Source: Candidatus Latescibacterota bacterium
GTDB taxonomy: Bacteria; Latescibacterota; CBDEFO01
Length of the DNA stretch: 64,000 nt
Reading direction: 5' to 3'
NCBI GenBank assembly: GCA_965248755.1
Contig: OZ252149.1
Coordinates: 2,656,001 to 2,720,000, forward strand
Shown here: positions 44,566-63,407 of the stretch, one piece after another
How positions within the stretch are numbered: position 1 is the stretch's first letter
Layout: every line of letters starts with the position of its first letter
Notes under the pieces: generated by a model
Told to the model about the DNA's origin: nothing
The model's input: only the letters and a program-made list of their open reading frames with translations
The model's database searches: none
Made by a program: the position numbers and the translations under genes

Positions 44566-45274
44566 ACATGATACCTTCCTTTTCGGGATATTCGTCAATC
44601 AATACGCCTGTTTTTCTTTCAGGTTCGTGCATATTAATAGATTTTAAAGCGATTTTGGCATAGAATAAAGTTTTGGTATCAAGTCGATATCTCTAATTGA
44701 GCCTGGCTTTACCCTTTTATTTAGGAAGTCTTCAAAAATCTGTGCTGTAGCCCAAACAAGTTGTTGTTGTTCGTCTTGACCAAAAGGTGGGATTTTATTT
44801 CCGTGGATAAAATCACTTCGCAACTTATAATTATTGTAAACTGTCCAAAAAAATCTCTTCTTATCACTTTTAACTACCTTGGCACAAAAAAGAGCAAGTC
44901 GAATTCGAATTTTTGAAGCCCCTAAACCAGCAAGAGCCTCTAAAGCAGATATACAGTCAAGTAGAGAATCTAACGGCTCGCTACGCCGTGGAGCACTCCA
45001 CCACCTTTGAAAAGCAACTTGTATACGCTTTCCTGTCGGGTGAAAAGCCTTACTTATCCAGTCTTCTATCCGAGCTTTCCGATTTTTGGTTAGTGTATAC
45101 CTGGGTCGGCTTTGGATAAGGTTTTGTGAAGTTGATTCTACGGTTTATACTTCGCTCTAGTCTGTATTCCCACCGTCCTAAAATAAGATCCAACATTTGT
45201 GATACAGTCTCTAATTTATTTGCATTACATACCGCTCCCCTTGACAGAGCGACAAATATTTCGCAAATTGGGGT

Positions 45275-45604
45275 TTGAGAAGGGAGGTCAAGGTGTCGAG
45301 CCCCGAAGTGAAAGATGGTAAGCGCTGGACGGCGACCCGTAAGGGAGAGATTGTGTTGGCTCTTTTGAGAGGAGCAGATCTATCTGAGGTGTGTCGTAAG
45401 AATGGAATTAGCCAGTCGCAGGCGTATGCTTGGCGTGATAGTTTCTTAGAAGGGGGCCAGGAGAGTCTGAAGTCTCGGCGTGGTCGCAAGGATCCGAAGG
45501 AGCGAGAGGTTAGCCGGTTGGAGCGCAAGGTAGGGCAGTTGACGCTCCAGTTGGAGATACTCGAAGAGGTAGCCCGTCTAAAAAAAACGAAGCGGTTGCC
45601 TTGA
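45275..45604 (+). CDS. IS3 transposase OrfA
   Basis: HTH, same as 52249-52578; likely start GTG 45293. Confidence 0.85.
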   Translation: MRREVKVSSPEVKDGKRWTATRKGEIVLALLRGADLSEVCRKNGISQSQAYAWRDSFLEGGQESLKSRRGRKDPKEREVSRLERKVGQLTLQLEILEEVARLKKTKRLP

Positions 45605-45704
45605 GTGGGCGGTTTTTGGGTCGAGGCTATTCCCGCAAGGTGGTAGCTTTGGCTTTGGGTTTGCATCGTTCGACTCTGTATAGGTTTAGGGATAGAGGTG
45701 TCAG

Positions 45705-45890
45705 CCCGGATTTACCCGGCCAGGAGTAGGACAAAAATGCCTGCATCACCTCTGACGATACCCCCTTAACCCTTCCACCTAACTCCTGATTGTATTTCTC
45801 AATAAAGTAATCGACAAGGAAAAAGGGAAGGTCCTCGATATGCTCGCGTAGCGGCGGCAGGACGATAGGAACGACGTTAAGGCATAAGAA
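45705..45890 (-). pseudogene. Captured 186-bp fragment of a sigma54-dependent (NtrC-family) activator gene
   Basis: Minus strand reads LNVVPIVLPPLREHIEDLP..FIEKYN..VS.EVM..LSYSWPG. Confidence 0.8.
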
Positions 45891-47516
45891 CCGACATTCC
45901 CCATATCACATTCATGAGGGATTATATTTCGATACATTCTTGTTTCTGAATTAATATTACCACTTTTACATTTTTCAACAAGTACTTTTTTCAATTAAAA
46001 TAGTATTTTCCTCTGAATTATCACTTTCTTTGTGTTTAAATCCTCCAATTAGAGACACCTCTCCATCGACTCACAAAAAAATGTGGCAGTTTAAACAGAA
46101 TAACATCGCAATCGTTCAATCCGGGATAATATTTCGGCAAATAACCTCTTGTCTATCCCAACCTCAGCCATTTGAAACGTAATATATCCGCTGTGTCTGA
46201 CAATCTTCGCTCCGATTTTGATAAATTTCACGAGGAGGCTGCGTAGTGACCAGTGTTTGATTTTCTTCGGAAGAACAAAACGTCGCAGGAAGTTGCCCAA
46301 GTTGTAAGCCAGAACAAACAGCCAGAGCCTCACCTGATTGGAGACGAAACGCTTGCATGAGAGTCGGGTCCAGTTCAGAGCATACTTGCCCTCCTTAATC
46401 CACTGCTCAGCTCTGCCACGGCCATTGTAGAAGTGTACCACGCCTTCTGGCTTGGCGCTCATGTTGGTCACGATAAATCCCACTCTTGGGAATAACTCCC
46501 CTTGGTGCCATTCAACCTTGGCGACCACTCGCCTCGATTGATCCCAACTGGCCGCTTTATATTGAAATTCATATAACGATACAATCGGTTTCCTCGGCGG
46601 TCGTCCAACTGGCCGAGTCAGCAGGTATCGTATCTTTTCATAGAGTATCTCATTTGCGGGAAGCCGAATGGCATACAAATAGCCGTTTCCCTCCAGATAA
46701 TCATAAATCTCAGGCTTTGCGAATGCAGCATCGCCTCGAAAGTATTTCCTATTCTTCTTGCTCTCGTATCTCTTGACGATCGGTTCCAGAACTTCCTTCC
46801 AACGATCAGCACTGTGAACATTACCAGAGCGAAGTAGGACTCCTTCACAATCCCCGAACTGATTGAAGCAGAACACTGGATGAAAACAGGTACATCCGAA
46901 ATGACCGTTGTAAGCTGATCCTTCCTGCTGGCCATGTACCGGACTCTCCGAACTGTCCATGTCCAGAATGATTCGTTGATGCTGTGTTTTACTCATCGCT
47001 TTTTGAACCCACTTGCCATTGATATCTGACAAGTTTCTGAGATTGTCATGCTGAGTCAGTATATCAGTTTCAAAACGTCCTATCGTGTTGGAGCTGGCAG
47101 CTTGCCTGCCTTTGTCCTTCTTTCCGGTAATCGCTCGCATGACGGGATCAACGGATAATCGCTCGGCGTCATTTACATCTTCATATCCTGCAAGACGGCT
47201 GTATATCGATTGACGCAGGAGAGTAGATATATCATGTTGGATATTACGGCCTGTGCGTTTATCGGTAAAAACCGCTGATACCGAATCAAATAATCCCAGT
47301 GCGTAATCAAGGTCACGATACGCAAGAAGTCCACCGTTTGATGTCACCTTTGCACCATGAAATTCAAGCTTTATTCCTCCATCAAAACCTACTTTCATTC
47401 TTTCACCCTCTGGATGATCAATATTTATCCGCCATTTATGAGTCTTATTTATTGTAATATAACATGTTCTGGCGACTTTGACAACCATTTTTCGGGTCTA
47501 ATATGGCGAATGGGGG
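45891..47516 (-). mobile_element. IS1380-family copy 2 (1626 bp)
   Basis: IRL CCCCCATTCGCCATAT / IRR CCGACATTCCCCATAT. Confidence 0.93.
46091..47488 (-). CDS. IS1380-family transposase
   Basis: GGLL, AGYEDVNDAERL..DP, DMDS, RGDAAF motifs. Confidence 0.93.
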   Translation of the reverse strand: MVVKVARTCYITINKTHKWRINIDHPEGERMKVGFDGGIKLEFHGAKVTSNGGLLAYRDLDYALGLFDSVSAVFTDKRTGRNIQHDISTLLRQSIYSRLAGYEDVNDAERLSVDPVMRAITGKKDKGRQAASSNTIGRFETDILTQHDNLRNLSDINGKWVQKAMSKTQHQRIILDMDSSESPVHGQQEGSAYNGHFGCTCFHPVFCFNQFGDCEGVLLRSGNVHSADRWKEVLEPIVKRYESKKNRKYFRGDAAFAKPEIYDYLEGNGYLYAIRLPANEILYEKIRYLLTRPVGRPPRKPIVSLYEFQYKAASWDQSRRVVAKVEWHQGELFPRVGFIVTNMSAKPEGVVHFYNGRGRAEQWIKEGKYALNWTRLSCKRFVSNQVRLWLFVLAYNLGNFLRRFVLPKKIKHWSLRSLLVKFIKIGAKIVRHSGYITFQMAEVGIDKRLFAEILSRIERLRCYSV

Positions 47517-47521
47517 GTCAG

Positions 47522-48281
47522 TTCTTCTGTTAAAGAGCCTGTGATAGATGAGGAGCTTGCTTTTCGTATTCGAGGGATACTGGACCAAGAAGAGGCATTT
47601 GGTCACAGGCGGGTTTGGGCGCATCTTCGTTTCAAGGAAGGGGAATGTGTCAACGTTAAGAAGGTTCATAGGATAATGAAGCTTAAGGGGTGGCAGTGTA
47701 AGCTGTGGAATCGTCCCGGGAGAAAGGGGCCACAGGTTGCCCAGAAGCGTTCTGTGGTGGATAGTCCCGACAGTTTGTGGTCGAGTGACTTGACAAAGAT
47801 TTACTGTGGAAAAGATGGTTGGTGTCCTCTTATTGCGGTGGTGGACAACGGAAGCCGGGAGGTTCCTGGGTATCGTTTTAGTCGAAAAGGGAGGGCACTG
47901 GAGGCCACAGATGCCCTGGATCGGGCCGTGATCTCTCGATACACTTCCAAGGAGGCTGTCCCCCAGGGTCTCACTTTGCGCTCTGACAATGGTTCCATCT
48001 TTTTGGCTCGGGCCTATTTGGCCAGTACCGAATATTGGGGAATTCGTCAGGAATACATACCAAGTGGTAAACCCGATTGGAACGGTGTTGTAGAGCGTTT
48101 TTTCAGGACCCTCAAGCAAGAGTGTGTTTGGCTTCACAAGTTTGAATCCTTTGAACAGGCTGAGAAGATCATATCTCAGTGGATCGATAATTACAACAAG
48201 AACAGGCTTCATTCATCCCTGGGATATAAGACCCCAAAAGAGTGGAGAAAACAATTTTATCTACTACCCCAGGTTGCTTAA
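47522..48281 (+). pseudogene. IS3 OrfB (integrase core) separated from OrfA
   Basis: WSSDLT, SDNGS, ERFFRTLKQE, YNKNRLHSSLGY. Confidence 0.85.
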
Positions 48282-48606
48282 TTGGTGTCGCTTTCCTGGG
48301 AAGCAGTACAATTATCCCATCCTTAGCAAACTATATTAGTGTATTTACGTCGTTCTGTTTTACCAAACAACTCAAGACTCATACCAGTATCTTCCCAAGA
48401 GGCAGGAAACATATTGCCTTCTGACTCAAACTCCTTTAATTTCGACATAGGAAACGATTCCAAAGTAATACCTTGGGTAAGGTCTTGCGGCCTTGAAGGA
48501 GGCTTTAAATACCAAACCGGATAAATAATCTGATTAGACATATTGGTTGAAAGCATCTTTATGGACAACTTGGGCCAGGACACTATGCCCTGGCCCTGTT
48601 GTCATT

Positions 48607-50520
48607 CTATTCCACAACCTCAAAGTCCGCATCCACAGCGCCACCGTCGTCCTTCTTCTTGCCGGCGGGCTCTTGCCGTTGTTCCTCTTGTCCGTCGCCT
48701 TCGGGCTGGCTCTGATCAGCTGCGGTCTCCTTGTACATCTCGCCTGCCACCTGATGCCAGACCTGATTCAGCGCCTCACTGGCGGAGTTGATCTCGTTTA
48801 CGTCAGATCCCTTGAGAGCCTCCTTAACCCGACCGATAGCGGCTTCGAGCTTCGACTTCGAGTCGGGACTGATCTTGTCCTGCATCTCCTTTAGGCTCTT
48901 TTCCGTCTGATAGACCTGTTGATCGGCCTGATTTCTGGCGTCTATTTCCTCCCTGTGCCTTTTGTCCTCAGACTCGTGCCCTTTGGCATCTGTGACCATC
49001 CTTTCGACCTCAGCCTCCGAAAGCCCTGAGGACGCCTCTATCCTTATGCTCTGCTCCCTTTCCGTGGCTTTATCCTTGGCAGACACATTCAGAATACCGT
49101 TCGCATCTATGTCAAAGGTAACCTCGATCTGAGGCATGCCCCTTGGGGCGGGAGGCATGCCGTCCAGATGAAATCTGCCCAGCGTCCTGTTATCGACCGA
49201 CATCTCGCGCTCACCTTGGAGCACGTGTATCTCCACCGATGTCTGGTTGTCATCTGCTGTGCTGAATATTTGGCTCTTCTTTGTGGGTATCGTCGTATTG
49301 CGCTCGATTAGCTTTGTAGTAACGCGCCCTAACGTCTCAATGCCAAGTGAAAGAGGAATCACATCCAAAAGCAGAACGTCCGTAACGTCTCCAGTGAGCA
49401 CGCCGCCCTGAATGGCAGCCCCTAAGGCTACCACCTCATCAGGATTGACGCCCTTGTGGGGTTCCTTTGCGAAAAGCTCCTTTACAACTTGCTGTACCCT
49501 CGGCATTCTGGTCTGTCCGCCCACTAATATGACCTCATCTATATCGGAGGGCGAAATTTCGGCATCTTCGAGCGCCTGTTGGCAGGGACCCATCGTCCTT
49601 TCTACAAGATCGTCCACCAACTGTTCTAATTTAGCCCTCGTCAAACTTATGGTTAGGTGCTTAGGGCCAGTCTGGTCAGCTGTTATGAACGGCAGATTAA
49701 TGTCTGTCTGCGTTGAGCTGGAGAGCTCACATTTTGCCTTCTCCGCCGCCTCTTTGAGCCTCTGAAGCGCCATGGGGTCTTTTCTGAGGTCGATTCCCTC
49801 CTGCTTCTTAAACTCGTCAGCCAACCAGTTCATGATCTTTTCGTCAAAGTCGTCCCCACCCAGGTGTGTATCTCCGTTCGTAGCTTTGACCTCAAATACG
49901 CCGTCGCCTAATTCCAGTATAGAAATATCGAACGTCCCACCCCCAAGGTCATAGACAGCTATCTTCTCATCCTTTTTCTTATCCAGACCGTAAGCTAAAG
50001 AAGCCGCTGTCGGCTCGTTGATAATCCTTAAGACTTCCAGCCCGGCGACCTTTCCGGAGTCCGTGGTCGCCTGCCTTTGACTGTCGTTGAAATACGCTGG
50101 AACCGTGATTACTGCCTGAGTCACCTTCTCTCCGAGATAGTCCTCAGCCGTCTGCTTCATCTTCTGGAGCACCATAGCCGAAATCTCAGGAGGCGTGTAC
50201 TCTCCGCCTTCAACTTCCACAACCGCTAAATCGTTAGTCCCGCTTTCGACTTTGTAGGGGACCTCCTCTATCTCTGTACCCACTTCGTTATATCTGCGCC
50301 CCATAAAACGCTTTATGGAGTAGATAGTGTTCTTGGGGTTTGTGATAGACTGTCTTTTTGCTACCTGTCCGACAAGGCGTTCTCCCTCCTTTGTGAACGC
50401 CACCACAGAGGGCGTTGTCCTTCCGCCCTCAGAGTTGGGTATCACAACCGGATCTCCGCCCTCCATCACGGCCACACACGAATTGGTCGTCCCTAAATCG
50501 ATTCCTATTACCTTTCCCAT
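48607..50520 (-). CDS. dnaK: Chaperone DnaK
   Basis: [34 protein letters not shown]. Confidence 0.98.
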
Positions 50521-50543
50521 TTTGCTATCCTCCTTTTAAACTG

Positions 50544-50816
50544 CTAAGCTGCGTTCTTAGACAAAGATTCATCCTTTGGGGACGATTTGGATTCTGAATT
50601 TTCCTTATCCGCCTTTTCCGCTTTCCTATAACTTTGGCTGCGATAATCAGTGCAGTAAAAACCTGACCCTTTGAACAAAAATCCCGCGCCTGCACCGATT
50701 AAGCGCTTCACCTTTTTGTCGCAAACCGGACATTCCTTAATAGGTTCTTCTGTAATACTCTGAAACCTTTCAAATCTCTTGCCACAGCTTTGACATTCAT
50801 ACTCGTAAGTCGGCAT
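50544..50816 (-). CDS. FmdB-family zinc ribbon protein
   Basis: MPTYEYECQSCG..CPVC..FKGSGFY.TDY; AGGAGG RBS. Confidence 0.9.
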   Translation of the reverse strand: MPTYEYECQSCGKRFERFQSITEEPIKECPVCDKKVKRLIGAGAGFLFKGSGFYCTDYRSQSYRKAEKADKENSESKSSPKDESLSKNAA

Positions 50817-50897
50817 ATTTTGAACCTCCTTTAAGAATTCAGATTTGAGAATACACACGTATAGTACGTATACATAATACTATAATACACGATACAC

Positions 50898-50912
50898 GCA
50901 TAAAACGTGCCA
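50898..50912 (-). promoter_or_regulatory. Sigma54 (-24/-12) promoter of the fmdB-dnaK operon
   Basis: TGGCAC-GTTTT-ATGC. Confidence 0.6.
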
Positions 50913-51244
50913 TTAGATTACAAATACCATTTACTTGCTTTATATCATTTATTTTAAGCATCTTATGTAACAGTGTAAGAAAAAGTTCTGACGTCCCCCT
51001 GCAACTTTCTATCTGCCTATACGACAGAGCCACTGTCATGATGACATATACATTACGTCAGACTATGGCATTTATGTCAAGTCTGAGGGAAGTGGTAGAC
51101 AGGAGAGACTCGACGCTTGCCCTTAAGATGGAGAAGGGTATTCATTATATATGAACTATAGGAATATTAGTTCATCAGTGAGGAAAAGATTTGACTCTGC
51201 AGAATCCCCATTTATATTTATGCATATCAAAAGGAGGATCCACC

Positions 51245-51715
51245 ATGGGATTTGTGAACATAAACACACAGAGGAAGATATTAGATTCAATTCAGTCAGT
51301 CTTGAAGCAGAAACGATGGTCATGGGGTCAATTAGCAAGTGAAGTCGGGATCGCTAAATCGTATATCAGTCAGATCAAGACAGAGACAAATCGTTTGAAC
51401 GTAGAAGTCCTTGAGAAGATAGCAAACGCACTGGAGATTCCTATGGTGTATCTCCTGCCGAAAGCTCCCCTGACCTCTGAAAACCGGAAGCTCATCCTTT
51501 CTCTTTTACAGCTTCCAGACGACATCAGTGATGAGAAACTTCTGAAGATAGCTGAGATAACCAGATTTCTCTCCACCAGGTCACTTCAGCAATTAGATGC
51601 GCTCCTTGCATTTCTCTCTCCATCGCCACACTCAGAAGGCATTTCTGCAGAGGCTGCCGGTTATGCGAAGGTTGCTGAACAACCTGGAAAATACAACAAG
51701 TCCCAGGACTCATAG
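51245..51715 (+). CDS. XRE-family HTH regulator
   Basis: GGAGG RBS; WSWGQLASEVGIAKSYISQI..LEKIANALEI. Confidence 0.8.
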   Translation: MGFVNINTQRKILDSIQSVLKQKRWSWGQLASEVGIAKSYISQIKTETNRLNVEVLEKIANALEIPMVYLLPKAPLTSENRKLILSLLQLPDDISDEKLLKIAEITRFLSTRSLQQLDALLAFLSPSPHSEGISAEAAGYAKVAEQPGKYNKSQDS

Positions 51716-52248
51716 ACCCATAACGCCCTTATGATCCGCAGGGCTAAACGTACTGGTTCTGAAGGACCCCCGCTCTGAAATCCTCCGCATTCATCGGCAG
51801 AAGCAGTTACTCCTCCGTAATAAGTAAACTTTGATAACTCCTTTATAGTATATCTATGTATAGCCACCGCTTTCAGCCCCGCTGAACACAGACACTCCGC
51901 AGGCGGGGCTTCAAAACGCGCTCTTGGGCAAAGGGGAACAAATCGCCTTTGGAGACCCCACAGTAGAAGCGGATGGCATTCATCCACAGCTAACCAGTGT
52001 TGATATTCTCCAATTATGCTTATGAAGGAGGCTGTTAATTTTTTGCTTCTATCTACATCAGCAACTAATTCATGTACGACGAATATTATTCTTGGTCTTT
52101 CAGTACTTATGAACTATATTTATCAACGAGACAGGCTGAAATGAAGAGTTCAAACTGAGGTTCGCTACTGCAAAGATAAAAGATCTTTGAGATAAGGATA
52201 GCATACCGCTCCCCTTGACAGAGCGACAAATATTTCGCAAATTGGGGT

Positions 52249-52578
52249 TTGAGAAGGGAGGTCAAGGTGTCGAGCCCCGAAGTGAAAGATGGTAAGCGCT
52301 GGACGGCGACCCGTAAGGGAGAGATTGTGTTGGCTCTTTTGAGAGGAGCAGATCTATCTGAGGTGTGTCGTAAGAATGGAATTAGCCAGTCGCAGGCGTA
52401 TGCTTGGCGTGATAGTTTCTTAGAAGGGGGCCAGGAGAGTCTGAAGTCTCGGCGTGGTCGCAAGGATCCGAAGGAGCGAGAGGTTAGCCGGTTGGAGCGC
52501 AAGGTAGGGCAGTTGACGCTCCAGTTGGAGATACTCGAAGAGGTAGCCCGTCTAAAAAAAACGAAGCGGTTGCCTTGA
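52249..52578 (+). CDS. IS3 OrfA
   Basis: HTH; A-rich slippery run (TAAAAAAAAC) at ~52553-52562; likely start GTG 52267. Confidence 0.88.
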   Translation: MRREVKVSSPEVKDGKRWTATRKGEIVLALLRGADLSEVCRKNGISQSQAYAWRDSFLEGGQESLKSRRGRKDPKEREVSRLERKVGQLTLQLEILEEVARLKKTKRLP

Positions 52579-53438
52579 GTGGGCGGTTTTTGGGTCGAGG
52601 CTATTCCCGCAAGGTGGTAGCTTTGGCTTTGGGTTTGCATCGTTCGACTCTGTATAGGTTTAGGGATAGAGGTGTCAGTTCTTCTGTTAAAGAGCCTGTG
52701 ATAGATGAGGAGCTTGCTTTTCGTATTCGAGGGATACTGGACCAAGAAGAGGCATTTGGTCACAGGCGGGTTTGGGCGCATCTTCGTTTCAAGGAAGGGG
52801 AATGTGTCAACGTTAAGAAGGTTCATAGGATAATGAAGCTTAAGGGGTGGCAGTGTAAGCTGTGGAATCGTCCCGGGAGAAAGGGGCCACAGGTTGCCCA
52901 GAAGCGTTCTGTGGTGGATAGTCCCGACAGTTTGTGGTCGAGTGACTTGACAAAGATTTACTGTGGAAAAGATGGTTGGTGTCCTCTTATTGCGGTGGTG
53001 GACAACGGAAGCCGGGAGGTTCCTGGGTATCGTTTTAGTCGAAAAGGGAGGGCACTGGAGGCCACAGATGCCCTGGATCGGGCCGTGATCTCTCGATACA
53101 CTTCCAAGGAGGCTGTCCCCCAGGGTCTCACTTTGCGCTCTGACAATGGTTCCATCTTTTTGGCTCGGGCCTATTTGGCCAGTACCGAATATTGGGGAAT
53201 TCGTCAGGAATACATACCAAGTGGTAAACCCGATTGGAACGGTGTTGTAGAGCGTTTTTTCAGGACCCTCAAGCAAGAGTGTGTTTGGCTTCACAAGTTT
53301 GAATCCTTTGAACAGGCTGAGAAGATCATATCTCAGTGGATCGATAATTACAACAAGAACAGGCTTCATTCATCCCTGGGATATAAGACCCCAAAAGAGT
53401 GGAGAAAACAATTTTATCTACTACCCCAGGTTGCTTAA
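52575..53438 (+). CDS. IS3 OrfB (DDE), -1 frameshift fusion partner
   Basis: rve core motifs; overlaps OrfA in the -1 frame. Confidence 0.9.
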   Translation: MSGRFLGRGYSRKVVALALGLHRSTLYRFRDRGVSSSVKEPVIDEELAFRIRGILDQEEAFGHRRVWAHLRFKEGECVNVKKVHRIMKLKGWQCKLWNRPGRKGPQVAQKRSVVDSPDSLWSSDLTKIYCGKDGWCPLIAVVDNGSREVPGYRFSRKGRALEATDALDRAVISRYTSKEAVPQGLTLRSDNGSIFLARAYLASTEYWGIRQEYIPSGKPDWNGVVERFFRTLKQECVWLHKFESFEQAEKIISQWIDNYNKNRLHSSLGYKTPKEWRKQFYLLPQVA

Positions 53439-53467
53439 TTGGTGTCGCTTTCCTGGGAAGCAGTACA

Positions 53468-54600
53468 ATATTTCTTGGGCAGAAAGAATTCTTTTACCGC
53501 CCGGTGAGCACTTCGATAAAGAACAAAAGGTAGTAATAAAATGTTTTGAAACCAAAGATATTCTTGCCTGCCCGGGTAGTGGTAAAACAAAGGCTTTGAT
53601 TGCCAAGTTGTTGATTTTGTCCCGGCAAATGCCTCTTGAAAATAATAGGGGTATTTGCGTATTAACTCACACAAATGTGGCTATAAATGAAATAAAAAGC
53701 CACGCTTACTTTGCTTCTAAAAAGCTCTCTAATTACCCAAATCATTTTGGGACAATTCAAAGTTTCGTGGATAAATATCTTGCGATACCGACGTATATCA
53801 ATCAGTTCAACCGAAGACCATTATTCATAAACAACGAAATTTATCTTGATAGGATGGAAAGAACGAGAAAATATTTAGGTAGAAAAACAAATGCATTTTG
53901 CTATCAGAGCGGTCATAAAGATTTGCCTTATTCACTTAGATTTGAAGATTTTTCCCTGGATGATAATGGTATATGTAAAAGACTTAAATTAGATTCAAAT
54001 GATACAACTCAAAGAGCACACTATGATAGATTGCTAAGACTAAAAGAACGGATACTTTTGGATGGAATACTAAGCTATGATGATGCATATTATATAGCAG
54101 AAAGACACATTGAAAAGCACCCTAATTTGAAAAACGTATTTGCAAAAAGATTTGCCTATGTTTTCATAGATGAAATGCAGGATTCAAGTACAATACAGTC
54201 CGAACTGATGAATAAAATATTCAATGATAATGTTGTTATTCAAAAAATAGGTGATTTAAATCAATCAATATTTGACTATGACCCTAACTTGGAATGCGGT
54301 TGGGCAGTAATTGACGACAGAACTATGTGTATTACAGGTAGTAAAAGATTTTCTAACGCTATAGCAAGCAAGGTTGAAAAACTTTGTGTTTTCCGGCAGA
54401 CAATAACGGGAAATGGCAGGCAAAATGAAATTACTCCTGTTATCATTGTTTATGATGATTATACTATTCAGCAGGTATTAGATAAATTCGGTGAAATAAT
54501 TATCAGAAATAATCTACATCAGAATGAGAAAAGGGTATTTAAAGCAGTTGGATGGCGTGGAAAACCGCATGACACAAAAAGAACTATACCAAGTTATTGG
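53468..54600 (+). pseudogene. UvrD/SF1 helicase (GajB-like), N part; start lost to IS3 B
   Basis: ACPGSGKT, LTHTNVA, GTIQSF, IDEMQD, IGDLNQSIF. Confidence 0.85.
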
Positions 54601-54629
54601 TGTACTGCTTCCCAGGAAAGCGACACCAA

Positions 54630-55389
54630 TTAAGCAACCTGGGGTAGTAGATAAAATTGTTTTCTCCACTCTTTTGGGGTCTTATATCCCAGGGATGAAT
54701 GAAGCCTGTTCTTGTTGTAATTATCGATCCACTGAGATATGATCTTCTCAGCCTGTTCAAAGGATTCAAACTTGTGAAGCCAAACACACTCTTGCTTGAG
54801 GGTCCTGAAAAAACGCTCTACAACACCGTTCCAATCGGGTTTACCACTTGGTATGTATTCCTGACGAATTCCCCAATATTCGGTACTGGCCAAATAGGCC
54901 CGAGCCAAAAAGATGGAACCATTGTCAGAGCGCAAAGTGAGACCCTGGGGGACAGCCTCCTTGGAAGTGTATCGAGAGATCACGGCCCGATCCAGGGCAT
55001 CTGTGGCCTCCAGTGCCCTCCCTTTTCGACTAAAACGATACCCAGGAACCTCCCGGCTTCCGTTGTCCACCACCGCAATAAGAGGACACCAACCATCTTT
55101 TCCACAGTAAATCTTTGTCAAGTCACTCGACCACAAACTGTCGGGACTATCCACCACAGAACGCTTCTGGGCAACCTGTGGCCCCTTTCTCCCGGGACGA
55201 TTCCACAGCTTACACTGCCACCCCTTAAGCTTCATTATCCTATGAACCTTCTTAACGTTGACACATTCCCCTTCCTTGAAACGAAGATGCGCCCAAACCC
55301 GCCTGTGACCAAATGCCTCTTCTTGGTCCAGTATCCCTCGAATACGAAAAGCAAGCTCCTCATCTATCACAGGCTCTTTAACAGAAGAA
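54630..55389 (-). pseudogene. IS3 OrfB fragment
   Basis: Same as the 47522-48281 fragment. Confidence 0.85.
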
Positions 55390-55394
55390 CTGAC

Positions 55395-57020
55395 CCCCCA
55401 TTCGCCATATTAGACCCGAAAAATGGTTGTCAAAGTCGCCAGAACATGTTATATTACAATAAATAAGACTCATAAATGGCGGATAAATATTGATCATCCA
55501 GAGGGTGAAAGAATGAAAGTAGGTTTTGATGGAGGAATAAAGCTTGAATTTCATGGTGCAAAGGTGACATCAAACGGTGGACTTCTTGCGTATCGTGACC
55601 TTGATTACGCACTGGGATTATTTGATTCGGTATCAGCGGTTTTTACCGATAAACGCACAGGCCGTAATATCCAACATGATATATCTACTCTCCTGCGTCA
55701 ATCGATATACAGCCGTCTTGCAGGATATGAAGATGTAAATGACGCCGAGCGATTATCCGTTGATCCCGTCATGCGAGCGATTACCGGAAAGAAGGACAAA
55801 GGCAGGCAAGCTGCCAGCTCCAACACGATAGGACGTTTTGAAACTGATATACTGACTCAGCATGACAATCTCAGAAACTTGTCAGATATCAATGGCAAGT
55901 GGGTTCAAAAAGCGATGAGTAAAACACAGCATCAACGAATCATTCTGGACATGGACAGTTCGGAGAGTCCGGTACATGGCCAGCAGGAAGGATCAGCTTA
56001 CAACGGTCATTTCGGATGTACCTGTTTTCATCCAGTGTTCTGCTTCAATCAGTTCGGGGATTGTGAAGGAGTCCTACTTCGCTCTGGTAATGTTCACAGT
56101 GCTGATCGTTGGAAGGAAGTTCTGGAACCGATCGTCAAGAGATACGAGAGCAAGAAGAATAGGAAATACTTTCGAGGCGATGCTGCATTCGCAAAGCCTG
56201 AGATTTATGATTATCTGGAGGGAAACGGCTATTTGTATGCCATTCGGCTTCCCGCAAATGAGATACTCTATGAAAAGATACGATACCTGCTGACTCGGCC
56301 AGTTGGACGACCGCCGAGGAAACCGATTGTATCGTTATATGAATTTCAATATAAAGCGGCCAGTTGGGATCAATCGAGGCGAGTGGTCGCCAAGGTTGAA
56401 TGGCACCAAGGGGAGTTATTCCCAAGAGTGGGATTTATCGTGACCAACATGAGCGCCAAGCCAGAAGGCGTGGTACACTTCTACAATGGCCGTGGCAGAG
56501 CTGAGCAGTGGATTAAGGAGGGCAAGTATGCTCTGAACTGGACCCGACTCTCATGCAAGCGTTTCGTCTCCAATCAGGTGAGGCTCTGGCTGTTTGTTCT
56601 GGCTTACAACTTGGGCAACTTCCTGCGACGTTTTGTTCTTCCGAAGAAAATCAAACACTGGTCACTACGCAGCCTCCTCGTGAAATTTATCAAAATCGGA
56701 GCGAAGATTGTCAGACACAGCGGATATATTACGTTTCAAATGGCTGAGGTTGGGATAGACAAGAGGTTATTTGCCGAAATATTATCCCGGATTGAACGAT
56801 TGCGATGTTATTCTGTTTAAACTGCCACATTTTTTTGTGAGTCGATGGAGAGGTGTCTCTAATTGGAGGATTTAAACACAAAGAAAGTGATAATTCAGAG
56901 GAAAATACTATTTTAATTGAAAAAAGTACTTGTTGAAAAATGTAAAAGTGGTAATATTAATTCAGAAACAAGAATGTATCGAAATATAATCCCTCATGAA
57001 TGTGATATGGGGAATGTCGG
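55395..57020 (+). mobile_element. IS1380-family copy 3 (1626 bp)
   Basis: Same IRs and sequence as copy 2. Confidence 0.93.
55423..56820 (+). CDS. IS1380-family transposase
   Basis: Same 465-aa ORF. Confidence 0.93.
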   Translation: MVVKVARTCYITINKTHKWRINIDHPEGERMKVGFDGGIKLEFHGAKVTSNGGLLAYRDLDYALGLFDSVSAVFTDKRTGRNIQHDISTLLRQSIYSRLAGYEDVNDAERLSVDPVMRAITGKKDKGRQAASSNTIGRFETDILTQHDNLRNLSDINGKWVQKAMSKTQHQRIILDMDSSESPVHGQQEGSAYNGHFGCTCFHPVFCFNQFGDCEGVLLRSGNVHSADRWKEVLEPIVKRYESKKNRKYFRGDAAFAKPEIYDYLEGNGYLYAIRLPANEILYEKIRYLLTRPVGRPPRKPIVSLYEFQYKAASWDQSRRVVAKVEWHQGELFPRVGFIVTNMSAKPEGVVHFYNGRGRAEQWIKEGKYALNWTRLSCKRFVSNQVRLWLFVLAYNLGNFLRRFVLPKKIKHWSLRSLLVKFIKIGAKIVRHSGYITFQMAEVGIDKRLFAEILSRIERLRCYSV

Positions 57021-57580
57021 ATAAGTACGAGAAAAAGGTCTCAGCTCAGATTTCTGCTCAACAGGAAGCATTAATGGCGGTGGCTACTGCTCGGGCCAAA
57101 GCGCAGCAGGCCGAGCAGGAAAAGCTGACTAAAGAGGCCGTAGGTAAAGCCAATGTCATTAAAGCCCAGTACGAAAAGGAGGAGGAGAAGATTCGTGCTG
57201 TGGTTGAAGCCCTGCAGGAAAAAGAGGTCGCCGAATTGCGAGCCCAACAGGAGCTTGAGGTAGCCAAGCTGCAGCGGCAGGCCGCAGAACTCCAAAAGCA
57301 GCGCGAAATCCTGCTGGGCCAGGGCGAAGCCGAACGCAAAAGGCTGATAATGAAGGCAGACGGCTCCTTAAAGATAAAGCTTGAGACTTACGAAAAGGTG
57401 ATGAAGTTTTGGGCTGATGCTTATGCAAAACGTCAGGTTCCGCAGCTGGTTATGGGTGGTTCTGGCGGTGCTAGTGGCACCGATCAATCCACTCTAAATT
57501 TCAATTCGGCCATGCAACTTTTGGTGGCAAAACAGCTTGGTCTAGACCTCAACGTGCCCAGAGGGACTGCTGGGAGGTAA
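57021..57580 (+). pseudogene. C-terminal coiled-coil fragment of an SPFH/band-7-like protein (cargo)
   Basis: Ala/Glu/Gln/Lys-rich heptads, GEAERKRLIMKADG..VPQLVMGG; 5' end abuts the IS IRR. Confidence 0.6.
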
Positions 57581-57587
57581 GGGGTGT

Positions 57588-58082
57588 GAGATCCAGCCTC
57601 TCTTCAAGCGGGCACTGACAATCAGTAAGAAGGTCCTCGGTCTAGACCATCCTAACGTGAAAGTCCTTCGATATGCACTTGAGGACGTCGAAGGGAAACG
57701 CAGGACGGTCTGCGTATCCTCTCAGGTCGGGTGTGCTCTGGGATGCACCTTCTGTTCGACCGCAAGGATGGGGCTGATACGGAACCTCTCTGCCGCAGAG
57801 ATTATAGATCAGCTCATATCCGTCAGGAGACATCATAAGCAGATAGACGACGGCATCACCAACGTGGTGATGATGGGTATGGGAGAGCCGCTCCTGAACT
57901 ACAAAAACGTGGTCAGGGCCATAAGGCTCATGGGTCTGGAGATGGGACTCGGGATCGGCGCTCGCAAGATAACCGTCTCCACGGCAGGATTTGTGCCCGG
58001 CATAGATCGGCTCAGAGATATCTCCGCCGCCTGCGGTCAGCTTATAACACCGGTCCCCAGGCAGGGGGCTGTCATATTTTAA
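57588..58082 (+). pseudogene. rlmN: Chimeric remnant: TPR fragment + internally deleted rlmN
   Basis: [22 protein letters not shown] then [32 protein letters not shown], jumping to DISAACGQL. Confidence 0.75.
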
Positions 58083-58208
58083 GTGTCATATACGTGAGCA
58101 CAGAGAGATGTTAGAGCGGATAGAAGATGTGGAAAACCTGGAGATGTTTGAGGAGATGAGAAAGAAGTCCCCTCAATTTCAGGAAGCGCAACAATTTCAT
58201 GAATTAAT

Positions 58209-58235
58209 GTCATTCCCGTGGAAACGGGAATCCAG
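58209..58235. repeat. GTCATTCCCG-N-CGGGAATCCAG palindrome (dRS3/REP-like)
   Basis: ATTCCC-8nt-GGGAAT. Confidence 0.6.
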
Positions 58236-58277
58236 GGATGCCATGAAACCCTATTACTTGCTAGTTAGCAAATGCGG

Positions 58278-59629
58278 CTGAGTATCTGTTGTTAAAGGCA
58301 GTGGATGAACTGATAGCTTCGAATAAAAATATAAATTTCAAATCAATCTATAACTGGATTTTAAATTACCAACCTTTTTCAAGGGAAAGGGACTGGAAGG
58401 CATCTGCTTTAAATGTTTTATACAAAGTAACTACAGGATCAACAGGCGAGGTTCTGAATTCTGATAGGACAATTGAGATTGAGAAACTTACAGAGAAGCA
58501 GGTTGTATTGGAAATCGGAAGTGTAGGGAGTCAACAGGATAAAAGCTTTTTTGTTCAGACTTTACTTTTAAGGATCTACAGACATTTTTTAAAATTAGGA
58601 AGTTCTAAAGATTTGAGGTTCTCTATCGTTTTGGAAGAAGCACATAATCTCCTTCTAAAACATAAAATAGGTTATGAAAGTGTAACTGAATTAGTCTTAC
58701 GACAGATAAGGGAGTTGGGAGTTGGCTGTATTATAGCAGATCAGCATCCACATTTGATGACACTGCCGGCTATAGCAAACTATGCAACTATATGTATGAA
58801 TTTGAAGACTGAGGAAGATGTTAGGACAATGGCAAATGCTATGCTCTTGGATAAGGAGAGGGATTACATAGGCAGACTTCCTGTAGGATGGGGTATCATA
58901 AAGCTTCAGGATAGATTTTTGAAGCCTTTCTTGGTTAGATTTCCTGAATGTAAGATGGGAGATGGGAAGGTTCCATCTTCATTAAGTGATTTCACAGATT
59001 TCAGTCTTAAGACAGCTGGAGCTGCTGGAAATACAGGGATTTGGCATAGAGATAAACTTAGCAGGAGAGAGAAGGTATTTTTGACAGATATTTTCAAGCA
59101 TCCAGAATCCTATGTTATTGAGAGATATAAAAGGTTAGAGGTAAATCCAAGGGCTGGCAATCAGTGTTTAAAAGATTTGGAGGAGAGGGGATTCATCAAG
59201 CCTGTGTATGTAAGAGTTAAAAGAGGGAAGGTGAAGCTGTTTGACCTCACGGCCCTTGGGAGAGAGTATCTTAAAAAGCTTGGGTATAGAGCATCTAACA
59301 GAAGTGGTGGGGCAGAGCATAAGTTCTGGCAGAGGAAAGTGATGGAGCATTACATTGCAAAGGGTTATAAAGTTTATCCTGAATATTCTGTTGGGGCTGG
59401 GAAGAAGGTTGATGTTGTTGCTGTCAAGGATGGAAGGAAAATAGCGATTGAGATTGAGACCGGGAAATCTGATGCTGTCTCTAATATCGTAAAATGTGTA
59501 AAGGCTGGATTTGAACAGGTAATATCTGTTGCCGTATCCAAAAGACTTAAAGAGGATATAGAAAAAAGCTTAAAAGGGAAAATCGTGGATAAAGTAAAAG
59601 TGGTCTGTTTAAAACGGATTGATCTGTGA
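58278..59629 (+). pseudogene. 5'-truncated HerA/VirB4-like ATPase fused to wHTH and a PD-(D/E)xK-like domain (cargo)
   Basis: IVLEEAHN (Walker B), RELGVG.IIADQHP; C-terminal EH..VDVV..IAIEIETG; Walker A absent. Confidence 0.7.
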
Positions 59630-59901
59630 TGGGATGGAACATGTCTTGCGCATTTGGATGGATAATAATGAAGGTGCAAAGTTTCGCCTGTTTTTTCCAA
59701 AACCTTGAAACTACTCTGGATCTCAGTGCATCGGACCAGTTGAAATCGAAAGAATTAAATACCTGGAATCACAACCTTTAAAACAGGAGTAAACTTCATT
59801 CTCTTTTATTACCCTTCAAGCCAGTAGCCCTCCGGTGGCTCTTTGTCTTCAAGGGTAACTTAGGGGGAACTTTTAAATAGAAGCTATACTTTCCCAATTG
59901 T

Positions 59902-61113
59902 ATGAAGCAAACAATTATAGATATCCATAACTTTGCACAAAAAGAACAGACAGCCAGAAAACATTTACTTGAAGCAGAAATATCTAATAGAAGTAAGGAA
60001 CTGATTTTAGAGTTCATAGATGACCTGGAATGCAGTGGAATGGGAAAAGCAAGAATTGTAAAGACAATTTCTATGGTGAAGAATATTGCAATGAAATTGA
60101 AAAAGGGGTTTCCATCAGCAGATGAAAATGATCTGAAGAAGTTTGTGAAGTCGATTCAAAACAATGGTTTTTATTCTGCCTGGACAAAGCAGGATTACAA
60201 CAAGGCGTTGAAGAAATTCTACAGGTGGCTCATAGGGAAAGGTTACACAAAAGTTGATGTTGAGTGGATACCAATAACGATGAAGTCAAAGGATAAGCCA
60301 AAACTCAAAAGAAGTGAGCTTCTAACAGAAGAGGAAGCGCATAAGGTTGTGGAGGAATGTGAGAATGCAAGGGACAAGGCATTGATATCCTTGATATGGG
60401 ATACTGGTGCAAGGATAGGAGAGATAGGTTCTATGACGATTGGCAGCGTACATTTTGAAGATGGTGGAACACTTGTGGATCTTAAAGGCAAGACAGGAAG
60501 CAGGACAGTTTTTGTTATTGAGAGCACACCACATCTGTTGACATGGCTCAAGCTTCACCCCTTCAAGGACGATCCAAAGACTCCCCTGTGGGTGACCATG
60601 GGACAGGATAGGATACACAAATATAAGCCGTTAAGATACCGGACATTCTACAAAATATTTGAGAGGTCTTTCAAAAAAGCTGGAATAAGGAAATCCTGGA
60701 ACCCGCATCTGTACAGACATTCTCGGGCTTTATGGTGTGTGCTGAATAACTGGAACACTATTATGGCCAACAAGTTCTTTGGCTGGGCAGACAACAGCAA
60801 TATGTATTCTTACTACGTATCTTTGGCTAATGAAGATGTGAAAGAGAAGATGATGCAGAGCTATGGGATAAGCACGAAGAAGGAAGATGAACTGGAAAAG
60901 AGAAAGCCGAAAATATGTGCCAGATGTGAGGCTTTGAATCAGCCCAAAGTGAAATTCTGCTATAGATGTGGTATGGCGATAGATCTAAAGACTGTGTTGA
61001 GCTTAGACGAGCAACGGAAGGCTTCTGATGAACTGATGAACGCACTTGTGAAAGATCCTGAAGTTCAGAGGATTCTTGTCAACAAGATCAGGGAAATGAG
61101 ACTAAGGGTGTAA
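59902..61113 (+). CDS. Tyrosine recombinase/integrase with C-terminal Zn ribbon (archaeal-type)
   Basis: DTGARIGE, GKTG.R, PHLYRHSRA, FGW..YY; CARC..N..FCYRCG. Confidence 0.88.
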   Translation: MKQTIIDIHNFAQKEQTARKHLLEAEISNRSKELILEFIDDLECSGMGKARIVKTISMVKNIAMKLKKGFPSADENDLKKFVKSIQNNGFYSAWTKQDYNKALKKFYRWLIGKGYTKVDVEWIPITMKSKDKPKLKRSELLTEEEAHKVVEECENARDKALISLIWDTGARIGEIGSMTIGSVHFEDGGTLVDLKGKTGSRTVFVIESTPHLLTWLKLHPFKDDPKTPLWVTMGQDRIHKYKPLRYRTFYKIFERSFKKAGIRKSWNPHLYRHSRALWCVLNNWNTIMANKFFGWADNSNMYSYYVSLANEDVKEKMMQSYGISTKKEDELEKRKPKICARCEALNQPKVKFCYRCGMAIDLKTVLSLDEQRKASDELMNALVKDPEVQRILVNKIREMRLRV

Positions 61114-61274
61114 TCTAGTATTCACATTTTCTGAGTCTTACTGTTTTTGACCTTTTGACCCTGCCGGCTTTTTGTAAAGAACCCATCGTTTCTTTGTCCC
61201 TCCCCATTTCACGCCCCAATTCATACCCAACTACGTGGAAAGTTGTTATATACTTCTGGCTCTCACCTCCTTTT

Positions 61275-61382
61275 ATGGCATCAGAAAAAGAGAAGGAGAT
61301 ATTCAGCCACCTTCCGGAGTGGATGAAGATATTAAACGATATGACCAAGGAGATTGAAGAACAAGAATCTGAAAAGTACTAA
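61275..61382 (+). CDS. Small hypothetical protein (35 aa)
   Basis: MASEKEKEIFSHLPEW..; TATA-like TTATATA 29 nt upstream. Confidence 0.4.
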   Translation: MASEKEKEIFSHLPEWMKILNDMTKEIEEQESEKY

Positions 61383-61493
61383 AATGCTCTTATATCCTAA
61401 ATTTCAGGGGAATTGTAAATCGAACTTCTATGGAAAGCCTTTTGAAGCTATTGATTATCTTTCTCTTAGTTTATACAACGCAGGAGTGATAAA

Positions 61494-61682
61494 ATGACAA
61501 AAGTAATTGACCCAAACTTTGAAACCTTTGGATGGAAAACCCATGTTAGAGAAAGAAGAGGTTCGTTTAAGATTACTATAAACAATCTGATAGCTGTGGG
61601 GGCAGGACTGAAACACGGACAGCCCCTGTACTGCTATGTTGCCAAAGATAAGGATGGCAGGACCTTAATTGTAATATATCCG
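61494..61682 (+). pseudogene. Small AbrB-like protein, 3' end cut at the cargo boundary
   Basis: GGAGTGA RBS; RERRGSFKITI..GLKHGQPL. Confidence 0.5.
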
Positions 61683-61782
61683 CTGACACCTCTATCCCTA
61701 AACCTATACAGAGTCGAACGATGCAAACCCAAAGCCAAAGCTACCACCTTGCGGGAATAGCCTCGACCCAAAAACCGCCCAC

Positions 61783-62112
61783 TCAAGGCAACCGCTTCGT
61801 TTTTTTTAGACGGGCTACCTCTTCGAGTATCTCCAACTGGAGCGTCAACTGCCCTACCTTGCGCTCCAACCGGCTAACCTCTCGCTCCTTCGGATCCTTG
61901 CGACCACGCCGAGACTTCAGACTCTCCTGGCCCCCTTCTAAGAAACTATCACGCCAAGCATACGCCTGCGACTGGCTAATTCCATTCTTACGACACACCT
62001 CAGATAGATCTGCTCCTCTCAAAAGAGCCAACACAATCTCTCCCTTACGGGTCGCCGTCCAGCGCTTACCATCTTTCACTTCGGGGCTCGACACCTTGAC
62101 CTCCCTTCTCAA
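61783..62112 (-). CDS. IS3 OrfA
   Basis: Same as the other copies. Confidence 0.85.
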   Translation of the reverse strand: MRREVKVSSPEVKDGKRWTATRKGEIVLALLRGADLSEVCRKNGISQSQAYAWRDSFLEGGQESLKSRRGRKDPKEREVSRLERKVGQLTLQLEILEEVARLKKTKRLP

Positions 62113-62159
62113 ACCCCAATTTGCGAAATATTTGTCGCTCTGTCAAGGGGAGCGGTATG

Positions 62160-62925
62160 TTGGGACGGCTACTCCAAAGAAATAAAAGTTAAAAAAACTG
62201 AATTTAGTAATCTAAAAAGTTATTTAGCTCCACAATCTGATAGTTTTATTTCATCTAATGGAGTTAATTTTTACAAGAAGAGGTTAGGGGAAGCTTTCTT
62301 AAAGTGCTTAAGAATTGCAGGAGTAACTGACGATGGAAGGGCATTCACAGAGAAAAAACTGCATAAATATATATCAGAAAAAAACTCGGATTTTTACCAG
62401 GATTTTAGGGTAAGGCTCGCCAATTGGTGTTTGAAGATACACAGGCAAGAAGAAGTTTTTGAAGAAATAAAACATTATCTAACCAATGAATTTAAGGAGT
62501 TTTTTAATTATCAGGTGAATGTTGAACTTACAATCTTTATAAATTCATCAGATTTGGAAGCGGATGATGAAGAAACCCATTCGAGCAATAACATCTACAA
62601 ATATTCTTCTGGAACAACTGATATCGACATAGAAGTTTCAACTATTCATGGTGTCAAAGGCGAAACCCATACGGCAACATGTTACCTTGAAACTTTCTTT
62701 TATGACTATGACATTAAGCGAATAATAAATTATATAAAGGGAGAGCATACTAAGCCAAAAGAAAGAGTAATTCAAAATCTAAAAATGGCTTTTGTAGGGA
62801 TGTCACGTCCATCTCGTCTCCTTTGCATTGCGGTTCATAAGGATAGTATTACCGGACAAGAAGAAGCACTGCAGAGAAGTGGTTGGGATGTTAATAAGGA
62901 ATTGTTAGCAGGTAGTAATAACTGA
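62160..62925 (+). pseudogene. UvrD/SF1 helicase (GajB-like), C part
   Basis: Continues in frame after the TSD (SYW-DGYSKE..); STIHGVKGETH, FVGMSRP. Confidence 0.85.
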
Positions 62926-62987
62926 AACAAGAAGGCTATTTATAATCGAAGATAGGTGCGATAATCGAAGATGGGTGGTTGCCATAT

Positions 62988-63407
62988 CATACCGTTCCCC
63001 TTCACAGAACGACAGATATTCTGTAAATCGGGGTTCGCGAAGGGCAAGATGTCAGCGCCAGAGCAGAAGACGGCTAGCGCTGGACAACGGTTCGATCTTT
63101 CTTTCTAGATCCTATTTGGTAAGTACCGAATATTAGGGGTTTGTCAAGAATATGTTCCGAGCGGAAAGGCCGATTGGAACGGTGTTGTAGAGCGTTTTTT
63201 CAGGACCCTCAAGCAAGAGTGTGTTTGACTTCACAGCTTCGAATCCTTTGAGCAAGCTGAGAAGATCATATCTCAGTGGATCGATAATTACGACAAGAAC
63301 CGTCTTCATTCATCCCTGGGATACAAGACCCTGCAAGAATGGAGAAAACAATAATATCTGCTACCCCAAGTTGCTTAATCGGTGTCGCTTTCCAGGGGGG
63401 CAGTACA
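62988..63407 (+). mobile_element. Degenerate, internally deleted relative of the IS3 element (420 bp, MITE-like)
   Basis: CATACCGTTCCCC.. and ..GGGGGCAGTACA ends; diverged orfB 3' remnant. Confidence 0.8.

What the first reader, a model, noticed from the sequence alone, without database searches (positions are those of the whole stretch)
45228..62159. IS-in-IS cargo vehicle: IS1380 units with different cargo sit at the identical site of an IS3 element
Seen: two IS3 copies (45228-48310 and 54601-62159) are split at exactly the same GTCAG, in the same relative orientation. The 5-bp duplication brackets IS1380 PLUS adjacent DNA rather than IS1380 alone. The cargo differs: 186 bp (45705-45890) versus 4662 bp (57021-61682). 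Each IS3-bounded composite has its own 4-bp TSD (ATTA; TTGG), and an intact IS3 (52202-53467) could supply transposase in trans. Known: IS1380-family ISEcp1 mobilises flanking DNA using IRR-like sequences. Inference: either this IS1380 targets a specific site in the IS3, or IS3::IS1380 is a two-tier vehicle whose cargo slot is swapped and then carried by the IS3 ends.
Basis: partly seen in the sequence, partly recalled or inferred. Interest (0 to 1): 0.85.

Follow-up and report, generated by a model that had tools for sequence, protein, structure and literature searches.

The report
Cargo-carrying IS1380 hits one site twice
A jumping gene that drags neighbouring DNA with it all over this bacterial genome has landed twice, with different passengers, at the same favoured spot inside two nearby copies of another jumping gene; the cargo capture is a known trick, and only the exact repeat of the landing site is still partly unexplained.

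Summary
The whole genome changes its meaning. This IS1380 has 47 full copies. Of 42 with a 5-bp duplication, 27 carry right-hand cargo, so capture is genome-wide ISEcp1/ISPme1-type behaviour and needs no IS3. The 186-bp unit sits at 8 places; both cargo sources are traced. Only 2 of 54 copies of this IS3 are split. The TTGG site of the larger composite holds an intact IS3 at two other loci, so IS3 probably came first and carriage by IS3 ends is not shown. The shared site ranks 2nd-9th of about 2,490 positions in IS3 under a target profile built from the other 40 insertions. That profile still gives only about 1% for an exact coincidence, and 2.4% of IS3 pairs lie this close. Best reading: two separate insertions at a favoured site (0.5). 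Open rival: cargo replacement aimed at a resident IS1380 end (0.3), not found in print. The inner junctions lack independent read support. The scan noted stepwise IS1380 capture before, in another genome.

The parts
45228..48310 (+). Composite A: IS3-family copy split by an IS1380 unit; 4-bp duplication ATTA (45224-45227, 48311-48314)
   Evidence: left outer junction on short-read contigs in X7, X8, X9, X10, right one in X9
45228..45704 (+). IS3 left part (orfA intact, first ~33 codons of orfB), ending in GTCAG 45700-45704
   Evidence: 100% identical to 52202-52678
45705..45890 (-). Cargo 1, 186 bp: right flank of the IS1380 copy at genome 755330, ending at an IRR-like site (reverse complement begins CCCGGATTT)
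   Evidence: same 186-bp unit with its own 5-bp duplication at 8 places; source locus is contiguous and IS-free in G001, 97.6% over 1796 bp
45891..47516 (-). IS1380-family element, 1626 bp
   Evidence: identical to 55395-57020
47517..48310 (+). GTCAG duplication plus IS3 right part (rest of orfB, right end)
   Evidence: identical to B
52202..53467 (+). Intact IS3-family copy B (orfA 52249-52578, orfB 52575-53438); no target duplication; left arm of a gajB segment that has spread
   Evidence: same right flank at 9 IS3 copies, ATAT duplication only at genome 1280495 next to gajA
53468..54600 (+). 5' part of a Gabija gajB helicase gene (start cut by B, split by C)
   Evidence: PADLOC GajB E=3.8e-129; several copies in the genome
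54601..62159 (-). Composite C: IS3-family copy split at the same site by an IS1380 unit; 4-bp duplication TTGG
   Evidence: same insertion site holds intact IS3 at genome 1578566 and 1581324 and is empty in 7 other gajB copies
55395..57020 (+). IS1380-family element; IRL begins CCCCCATTCGCC, IRR (reverse complement) begins CCGACATTCCCC; transposase probably 55513-56820
   Evidence: PF13701 E=2.4e-128; NF033539 above cut-off; 47 full copies
57021..58278 (+). Cargo 2, first 1258 bp: mosaic shared by 4 IS1380 copies; coiled-coil gene fragment (no family hit) and rlmN fragment 57657-58082
58279..61682 (+). Cargo 2, remainder: N-truncated ATPase-like gene 58289-59629, whole tyrosine integrase gene 59902-61113, small ORFs; ends inside an ORF at an IRR-like site (reverse complement begins CGGATATATT)
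   Evidence: 100% identical to the flank of the IS1380 at genome 1274927, where the cut ORF continues; PF00589 E=8.3e-22
61683..62159 (-). CTGAC duplication plus IS3 left part of C
62160..62925 (+). 3' part of gajB
   Evidence: PADLOC GajB E=2.2e-43 for 62431-62922
62988..63407 (+). 420-bp internally deleted IS3 relative (MITE-like), right arm of the gajB segment; 14 copies

Best explanation
Both composites are ordinary IS1380 transposition units (ISEcp1/ISPme1 type) that landed separately in IS3 copies that were already there. Shown: the IS1380 uses its left end with either its own right end or a degenerate look-alike further right (roughly S-S-S-n-n-A-T), moves IS plus the DNA in between, and duplicates 5 bp of target. 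Shown: it has a soft, symmetric target preference (purine-rich left flank, AT-rich core, pyrimidine-rich right flank), and the IS3 site is among the best matches in IS3. Shown: the IS3 insertion at C exists without IS1380 elsewhere, and both cargo ends were cut by the IS1380 rule, so two separate right-end strand transfers hit one nucleotide. Inferred: the site is a hotter spot than a profile from 40 sites can show; insertions into an IS are harmless and are kept, and the IS3 family offers the site 69 times. Inferred: IS3 is a passive landing pad here, and both split copies have lost orfB.
For: 27 of 42 resolved units carry cargo; of 21 distinct ends, 19 have A at position 6 and 17 have T at position 7. 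The 186-bp unit is at 8 places, 7 outside IS3. Cargo 2 is the first 4662 bp of the flank of copy 1274927. Intact IS3 at C's site in two other gajB copies. A profile from the 40 other sites gains 3.1-3.4 bits per site in leave-one-out tests and ranks the site 2nd (one-sided) or 7th-9th (symmetrised) of about 2,490 in IS3; flanks alone are in the top 0.11%. Flank symmetry: 150 of 240 purines left, 157 of 240 pyrimidines right. 9 of 42 insertions are in multi-copy DNA against 9.6% expected, so about 2 hits in IS3 are expected. No sign of end-directed targeting: 0 of 40 other sites have a top-2% end-like motif at offsets -2 to +2 on either side, and none of the 47 left flanks shows the element's own right end or the 186-bp end.
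Against: The fitted profile gives only 0.8-1.1% that two hits in IS3 coincide. Only 2.4% of 1431 IS3 pairs lie within 17 kb. The core CTGAC is itself a poor match: 35 of 40 real sites score better on the core alone. A very strong hotspot should also have hit some of the other copies, yet 51 of 52 intact 1266-bp copies keep the exact site empty. No split IS3 was seen in 5 related loci or in the metagenome pattern hits.
Confidence: 0.5

Rival explanations
1. One insertion, copied nearby, then replaced. An IS1380 unit inserts once in IS3. The split IS3 is copied to the neighbouring place by IS3 transposition in trans or by gene conversion between the inverted IS3 copies. A second unit then inserts exactly at the 5-bp duplication beside the resident unit's right end (end-directed targeting as in IS911, IS30, IS26), and recombination between the two direct IS1380 copies deletes the old IS plus cargo. 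The result is a cargo swap at an unchanged site.
For: Explains the identical site and the 8-kb neighbourhood at once. IS3 copies with a 4-bp duplication are clustered (28 of 49 have a neighbour within 20 kb, 16.9 expected, p=0.007), and gajB segments show many local IS3-end rearrangements. Two single-base variants of the IS1380 disagree with cargo lineage (e.g. source 755330 has the start-codon variant, 7 of its 8 186-bp daughters lack it), which fits recombination between copies. End-directed insertion with exchange of flanks is described for IS26 and invoked for the IS3 and IS30 families (PMC7986276, passages).
Against: No other case in 42 resolved units: no tandem junction and no insertion beside an end-like motif. 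After a first insertion the two half-sites score lower (2.0-2.5 bits against 6.7), so it needs true end-targeting. For IS26 the targeted reaction needs identical reacting ends (PMC7986276); the two cargo ends differ. A nested direct pair 1.7 kb apart (3746991/3750308) persists undeleted. Needs three events. Not found in print for IS1380 in the searches made.
Confidence: 0.3
2. Assembly or strain mosaic: one inner junction comes from a minority strain or a mis-join in an 11-kb stretch (52202-63407) built wholly of multi-copy pieces.
For: In 4 of 4 runs (one sample, one study, possibly the source) the cargo-2 contig runs on into the source flank without a break at 61682, and no listed contig bridges cargo|IS3. 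Two of the four runs show clustered differences near 50063-51928, so related strains are present. The contig ends overlap by 7.2 kb, untrimmed.
Against: A mis-join would not land on the exact 5-bp duplication, nor on an end with A6-T7 like 17 of 21 ends. Both outer 4-bp duplications match. Contigs drop short links between high-depth repeats: another single-copy IS3-to-IS1380 link was kept in only 1 of 4 runs (table 5). Cargo-2 depth is about 1.6-2.3 times single-copy depth in 3 of 4 runs, as two copies predict, and about 0.8 in the fourth (rough).
Confidence: 0.1
3. One reading: IS3::IS1380 is a unit whose cargo slot is exchanged and which is routinely carried about by the IS3 ends.
For: A has its own unique 4-bp duplication and both IS3 ends are intact; 52 intact copies could supply transposase; this IS3 does move a gajB segment. 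ISEcp1 units nested in a larger transposon are known (Tn1722; PMC7364219, passages).
Against: Only 2 of 54 copies are split and no cargo version occurs twice inside IS3. C's IS3 insertion exists without IS1380. Both cargo ends follow the IS1380 rule and one unit spreads without IS3.
Confidence: 0.07

Closest known systems
ISEcp1 transposition units (IS1380 family)
   Same: One IS copy; IRL plus an imperfect downstream IRR; units of variable length; 5-bp duplication around IS plus cargo; gain or loss of downstream DNA at each move (PMC12589106, passages).
   Different: An environmental chromosome with 47 copies, 20 distinct alternative ends and junk cargo of gene fragments, with no resistance gene; a measurable symmetric target preference; two different units at one nucleotide.
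ISPme1 transposable modules (TMos) of Paracoccus
   Same: IS1380-family element moving DNA of variable length next to its 3' end; source copies stay in place, in line with the replicative pattern reported for ISPme1 (PMC9330008, PMC3281130, passages).
   Different: An outward promoter was not tested here; the pathway is stated to be unknown for the family (PMC9330008).
ISEcp1-blaCTX-M unit nested in Tn1722
   Same: An IS1380-family unit with a 5-bp duplication inside another transposable element (PMC7364219, passages).
   Different: There the outer element has been carried to new sites; here carriage of the loaded IS3 is not shown.
Targeted insertion of IS26, IS911 (IS3 family) and IS30
   Same: Would give the replacement route of rival 1: insertion at a resident end with recombination through the IS (PMC7986276, passages).
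   Different: Not found reported for IS1380; IS26 needs identical reacting ends; no supporting case among 40 other sites here.

Membership tests
IS1380 family | Single DDE transposase of the IS1380 type | tested here: met
   NF033539 385.8 bits, cut-off 180; PF13701 E=2.4e-128
IS1380 family | About 1.6-1.7 kb with short imperfect terminal inverted repeats | tested here: met
   1626 bp in 47 of 47 copies; 13 of the first 16 bases match between the ends
IS1380 family | 5-bp target duplication | tested here: met
   42 of 47 copies; one 6-bp, one 4-bp, three unresolved
ISEcp1-type transposition unit / TMo | IRL plus an alternative IRR-like end; duplication brackets IS and cargo; variable length | tested here: met
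   27 of 42 units with cargo of 58-5734 bp; 21 distinct ends share A6 (19) and T7 (17)
ISEcp1-type transposition unit / TMo | Cargo traceable to the right flank of another copy | tested here: met
   cargo 1 from 755330 (IS-free in G001); cargo 2 from 1274927
ISEcp1-type transposition unit / TMo | Outward promoter that drives the cargo | not tested
   no promoter scan or RNA data used
IS3 family | orfA (HTH) and orfB (DDE) overlapping in -1 phase with a slippery A run; 1.2-1.5 kb | tested here: met
   PF01527, PF00665, NF033516 above cut-off; A8 run upstream of the orfA stop; 1266 bp
IS3 family | Ends 5'-TG...CA-3' (feature recalled) and 3-4-bp duplication | tested here: inconclusive
   4-bp duplication at 49 of 69 full-length copies; right end fits, but the left end begins CA in 68 of 69
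IS3-bounded composite vehicle | The same loaded composite found at more than one site, each with a new duplication | tested here: not met
   each version occurs once; C's site holds unloaded IS3 at two other loci
Site-specific IS (fixed target) | Most insertions at one defined target | tested here: not met
   40 other insertions at 40 different sites; profile worth about 3.3 bits
End-targeted insertion (IS911/IS30/IS26 type) | Insertions next to resident ends; end-spacer-end junctions | tested here: inconclusive
   0 of 40 other sites, but recombination would erase the intermediate

The most novel reading that the evidence does not exclude
IS1380-family transposase can aim an incoming unit at the end of a resident unit, so that after recombination the cargo is replaced while site and duplication stay unchanged. 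A and C would be the before and after, preserved because the IS3 host had been copied in between. If ISEcp1 does the same, different resistance units at one site need not be independent insertions.
Probability: 0.25. Interest if true: 0.6.

Novelty: new member of a known kind. Interest (0 to 1): 0.3.

Why it matters
Cargo capture by IS1380-family elements is known from resistance genes, but the family's pathway is stated to be unknown (PMC9330008). This one genome gives a natural data set of 42 resolved events, with source copies kept, 20 alternative ends and a measurable target preference. A search for 'ISEcp1' with 'target site preference' returned one paper, on IS26. The doubly hit 21-bp site is a ready substrate to tell a hotspot from end-directed replacement. 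If it is a hotspot, the finding is ordinary. If it is replacement, it adds a route to a clinically important IS family.

Tried and rejected
Pseudo-end beside the site as the cause of targeting: the motif one base right of the duplication scores only in the top 2.9%, is one base out of register, and 0 of 40 other sites show such a motif. Microhomology swap between the cargo ends: both contain ATCCG, but either crossover would give a junction that is not seen (sequence). Inversion or copy-in between A and C: would unmatch the ATTA and TTGG duplications, which match. Mixing of halves by plain recombination: cannot create two different cargo|IS3 junctions (inference). B as special helper: one of 52 intact copies. 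Local hopping of IS1380: copies are not clustered (13 observed, 15.6 expected). Other genomes: junction pattern 0 hits in metagenome contigs. An 18-base pattern gave 8 genome hits, 5 of them intact IS3 relatives. Among 40 relatives only G001 has this IS3, and its IS1380 matches are 83-93% fragments. No right end was found for copies 1274927, 2982012 and 3959959 within 120 kb. Nine paper searches found no report of same-site cargo replacement by an IS1380-family element; most subscription journals are not in the library and no supplements were opened.
Full report
1. Observation. The window has two IS3 copies split at the same five bases, in the same relative orientation, each by IS1380 plus flanking DNA, with 186 and 4662 bp of cargo and outer duplications ATTA and TTGG. 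The IS3 halves and the two IS1380 copies are identical. Both transposases pass the curated family cut-offs. The insertion splits IS3 orfB near codon 33, so neither split copy can make its own transposase.

2. The IS1380 genome-wide. Exact end matches give 47 full 1626-bp copies; a 48th, cut by the contig end, lies in a 7.2-kb overlap with the contig start. A 5-bp duplication was assigned to 42 of 47: 15 around the IS alone, 27 around IS plus 58-5734 bp of cargo. Left out: one 6-bp, one 4-bp and three unresolved copies. Three of the 27 ends (834366, 3849774, 3782900) rest on duplication and motif alone; the others agree with the point where a sibling or source diverges. The 21 distinct ends share A at position 6 (19) and T at position 7 (17). 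This matches the ISEcp1 and ISPme1 behaviour described in PMC12589106, PMC9330008 and PMC3281130 (passages seen).

3. The two cargos. Cargo 1 is the right flank of the copy at genome 755330; that locus is contiguous and IS-free in G001. The 186-bp unit has its own duplication at 8 places, 7 of them outside IS3. Cargo 2 is the first 4662 bp right of the copy at 1274927, where the ORF cut in the window continues. It is itself a mosaic: 1258 bp shared by four copies (coiled-coil and rlmN fragments), then a truncated ATPase-like gene and a whole tyrosine integrase gene. Both cargo ends fit the IS1380 end rule. So two separate right-end transfers hit the same nucleotide of IS3; plain recombination cannot make the second junction (inference).

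4. The IS3 genome-wide. There are 52 intact 1266-bp copies, 15 of a 1288-bp variant, 14 of a 420-bp derivative, and only the two split ones. B has no duplication. It is the left arm of a segment of a Gabija gajB gene, bounded on the right by the 420-bp element, which has spread from genome 1278510-1283055 next to gajA. C's TTGG site in gajB holds an intact IS3 at 1578566 and 1581324 and is empty in 7 other copies. The simplest order is IS3 first, IS1380 unit later; conversion back to intact IS3 is not excluded. The TTGG duplication therefore does not show that a loaded IS3 moved. A has a unique site and cannot be ordered.

5. Is the site a hotspot? A profile from the 40 other sites has real predictive value (3.1-3.4 bits per site, leave-one-out) and is symmetric (consensus TGAAAGAGAT-TTAAA-ATCTCTTTCA). 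With flanks, the IS3 site ranks 2nd to 9th of about 2,490 positions in IS3; by the 5-bp core alone it is poor (rank 449-585). Nine of 42 insertions lie in multi-copy DNA, which is 9.6% of the genome outside IS1380 units and their sources; IS3 is 1.9%, so about two hits in IS3 are expected. The chance that two such hits coincide rises from 0.04% to about 1%, and 2.4% of IS3 pairs are within 17 kb. The preference thus explains part of the coincidence, not all. Real hotspots often exceed a profile (general knowledge, recalled), and a scan of many windows selects for coincidences.

6. Rival. One insertion, a local copy of the split IS3, then a second unit aimed at the resident end and recombination between the direct IS copies gives exactly C or A. 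For: IS3 is clustered (p=0.007); IS1380 variants disagree with cargo lineage; end-directed insertion is described for IS26, IS911 and IS30 (PMC7986276, passages). Against: no such case among 40 other sites, lower scores of the half-sites, differing reacting ends, and a nested direct pair that persists.

7. Reads. Four runs of one sample hold 95-96% of the words of 53500-63000; they may be the source. Their contigs support the outer junctions of A and the left junction of B, and show the empty gajB site. They list no bridge of the inner junctions, and the cargo-2 contig runs into the source flank in 4 of 4 runs. Such contigs drop short links between deep repeats (a comparable link was kept in 1 of 4), so this is weak, but the junctions are not independently confirmed.

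8. Verdict. A new, very active member of a known kind: an IS1380 that makes transposition units. The IS3 vehicle is not supported. The exact double hit is best read as two insertions at a favoured site (0.5), with end-directed cargo replacement (0.3) as the open and more interesting rival, then artefact or strain mosaic (0.1) and the two-tier vehicle (0.07). The odds are my judgement from n = 2. Papers were seen as search listings and as passages (PMC12589106, PMC9330008, PMC7986276, PMC3281130, PMC7364219); no supplements were opened, and target-site tables in them could bear on the novelty claim.

Noticed in passing
window 55513-55515 (IS1380 position 119-121), genome-wide: 10 of 47 IS1380 copies have ATC in place of the probable transposase start ATG. 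The variant is in 7 of 15 cargo-free and 3 of 27 cargo-bearing resolved copies (Fisher p=0.02). Three source copies carry it while most of their daughters do not. Gene conversion that silences older copies, or a polishing artefact.
   Followed up: partly
window 52202-52207: The IS3's left end begins 5'-CA, not the 5'-TG recalled for the family, in 68 of 69 full-length copies, yet 49 have clean 4-bp duplications; one copy (genome 2434658) begins TG.
   Followed up: partly
window 52202-63407; genome 1570111-1582572, 1636184-1645310, 4058696-4068616: A Gabija gajB gene, cut from gajA by IS3, has been spread and shredded by IS3 and its 420-bp derivative into many partial copies in local clusters: a defence system destroyed by IS activity.
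   Followed up: partly
genome 4062898 versus window 54597-54600: In another gajB copy an IS1380 186-bp unit inserted within 9 bp of the site that IS3 uses in C: two unrelated transposases chose the same short stretch.
   Followed up: no
window 58289-61682; L152: Remnant of an integrated element: tyrosine integrase whose best NCBIfam match is the archaeal XerA model (below cut-off), with a C-terminal zinc-ribbon hit, and an ATPase-like gene with a weak CedB hit; an 83% relative lies at genome 2917812-2918478.
   Followed up: no
window 44585-48611: A sits in about 0.9 kb of foreign DNA between clpB and dnaK that G001 lacks; the ORF piece 44647-45144 has no PADLOC or NCBIfam hit.
   Followed up: partly
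window 52201 and 63408: The flanks of the B-to-MITE segment lie 1.3 Mb apart on one contig of G001, so the segment marks a large rearrangement, which explains B's missing duplication.
   Followed up: partly
window 57688-58018: The rlmN piece in cargo 2 is only 94.9% identical to this genome's other copy and equally to G001: the cargo may have come from another strain.
   Followed up: no
genome 1-7206 and 4533530-4540735: The contig ends overlap by 7.2 kb at 99.9%: untrimmed circle, which duplicates one IS1380 copy.
   Followed up: yes
window 24310-30549 and 37935-39200: Long intragenic tandem repeats (about 1.6-kb units at 84-86%, and about 318-bp units) in large genes.
   Followed up: no
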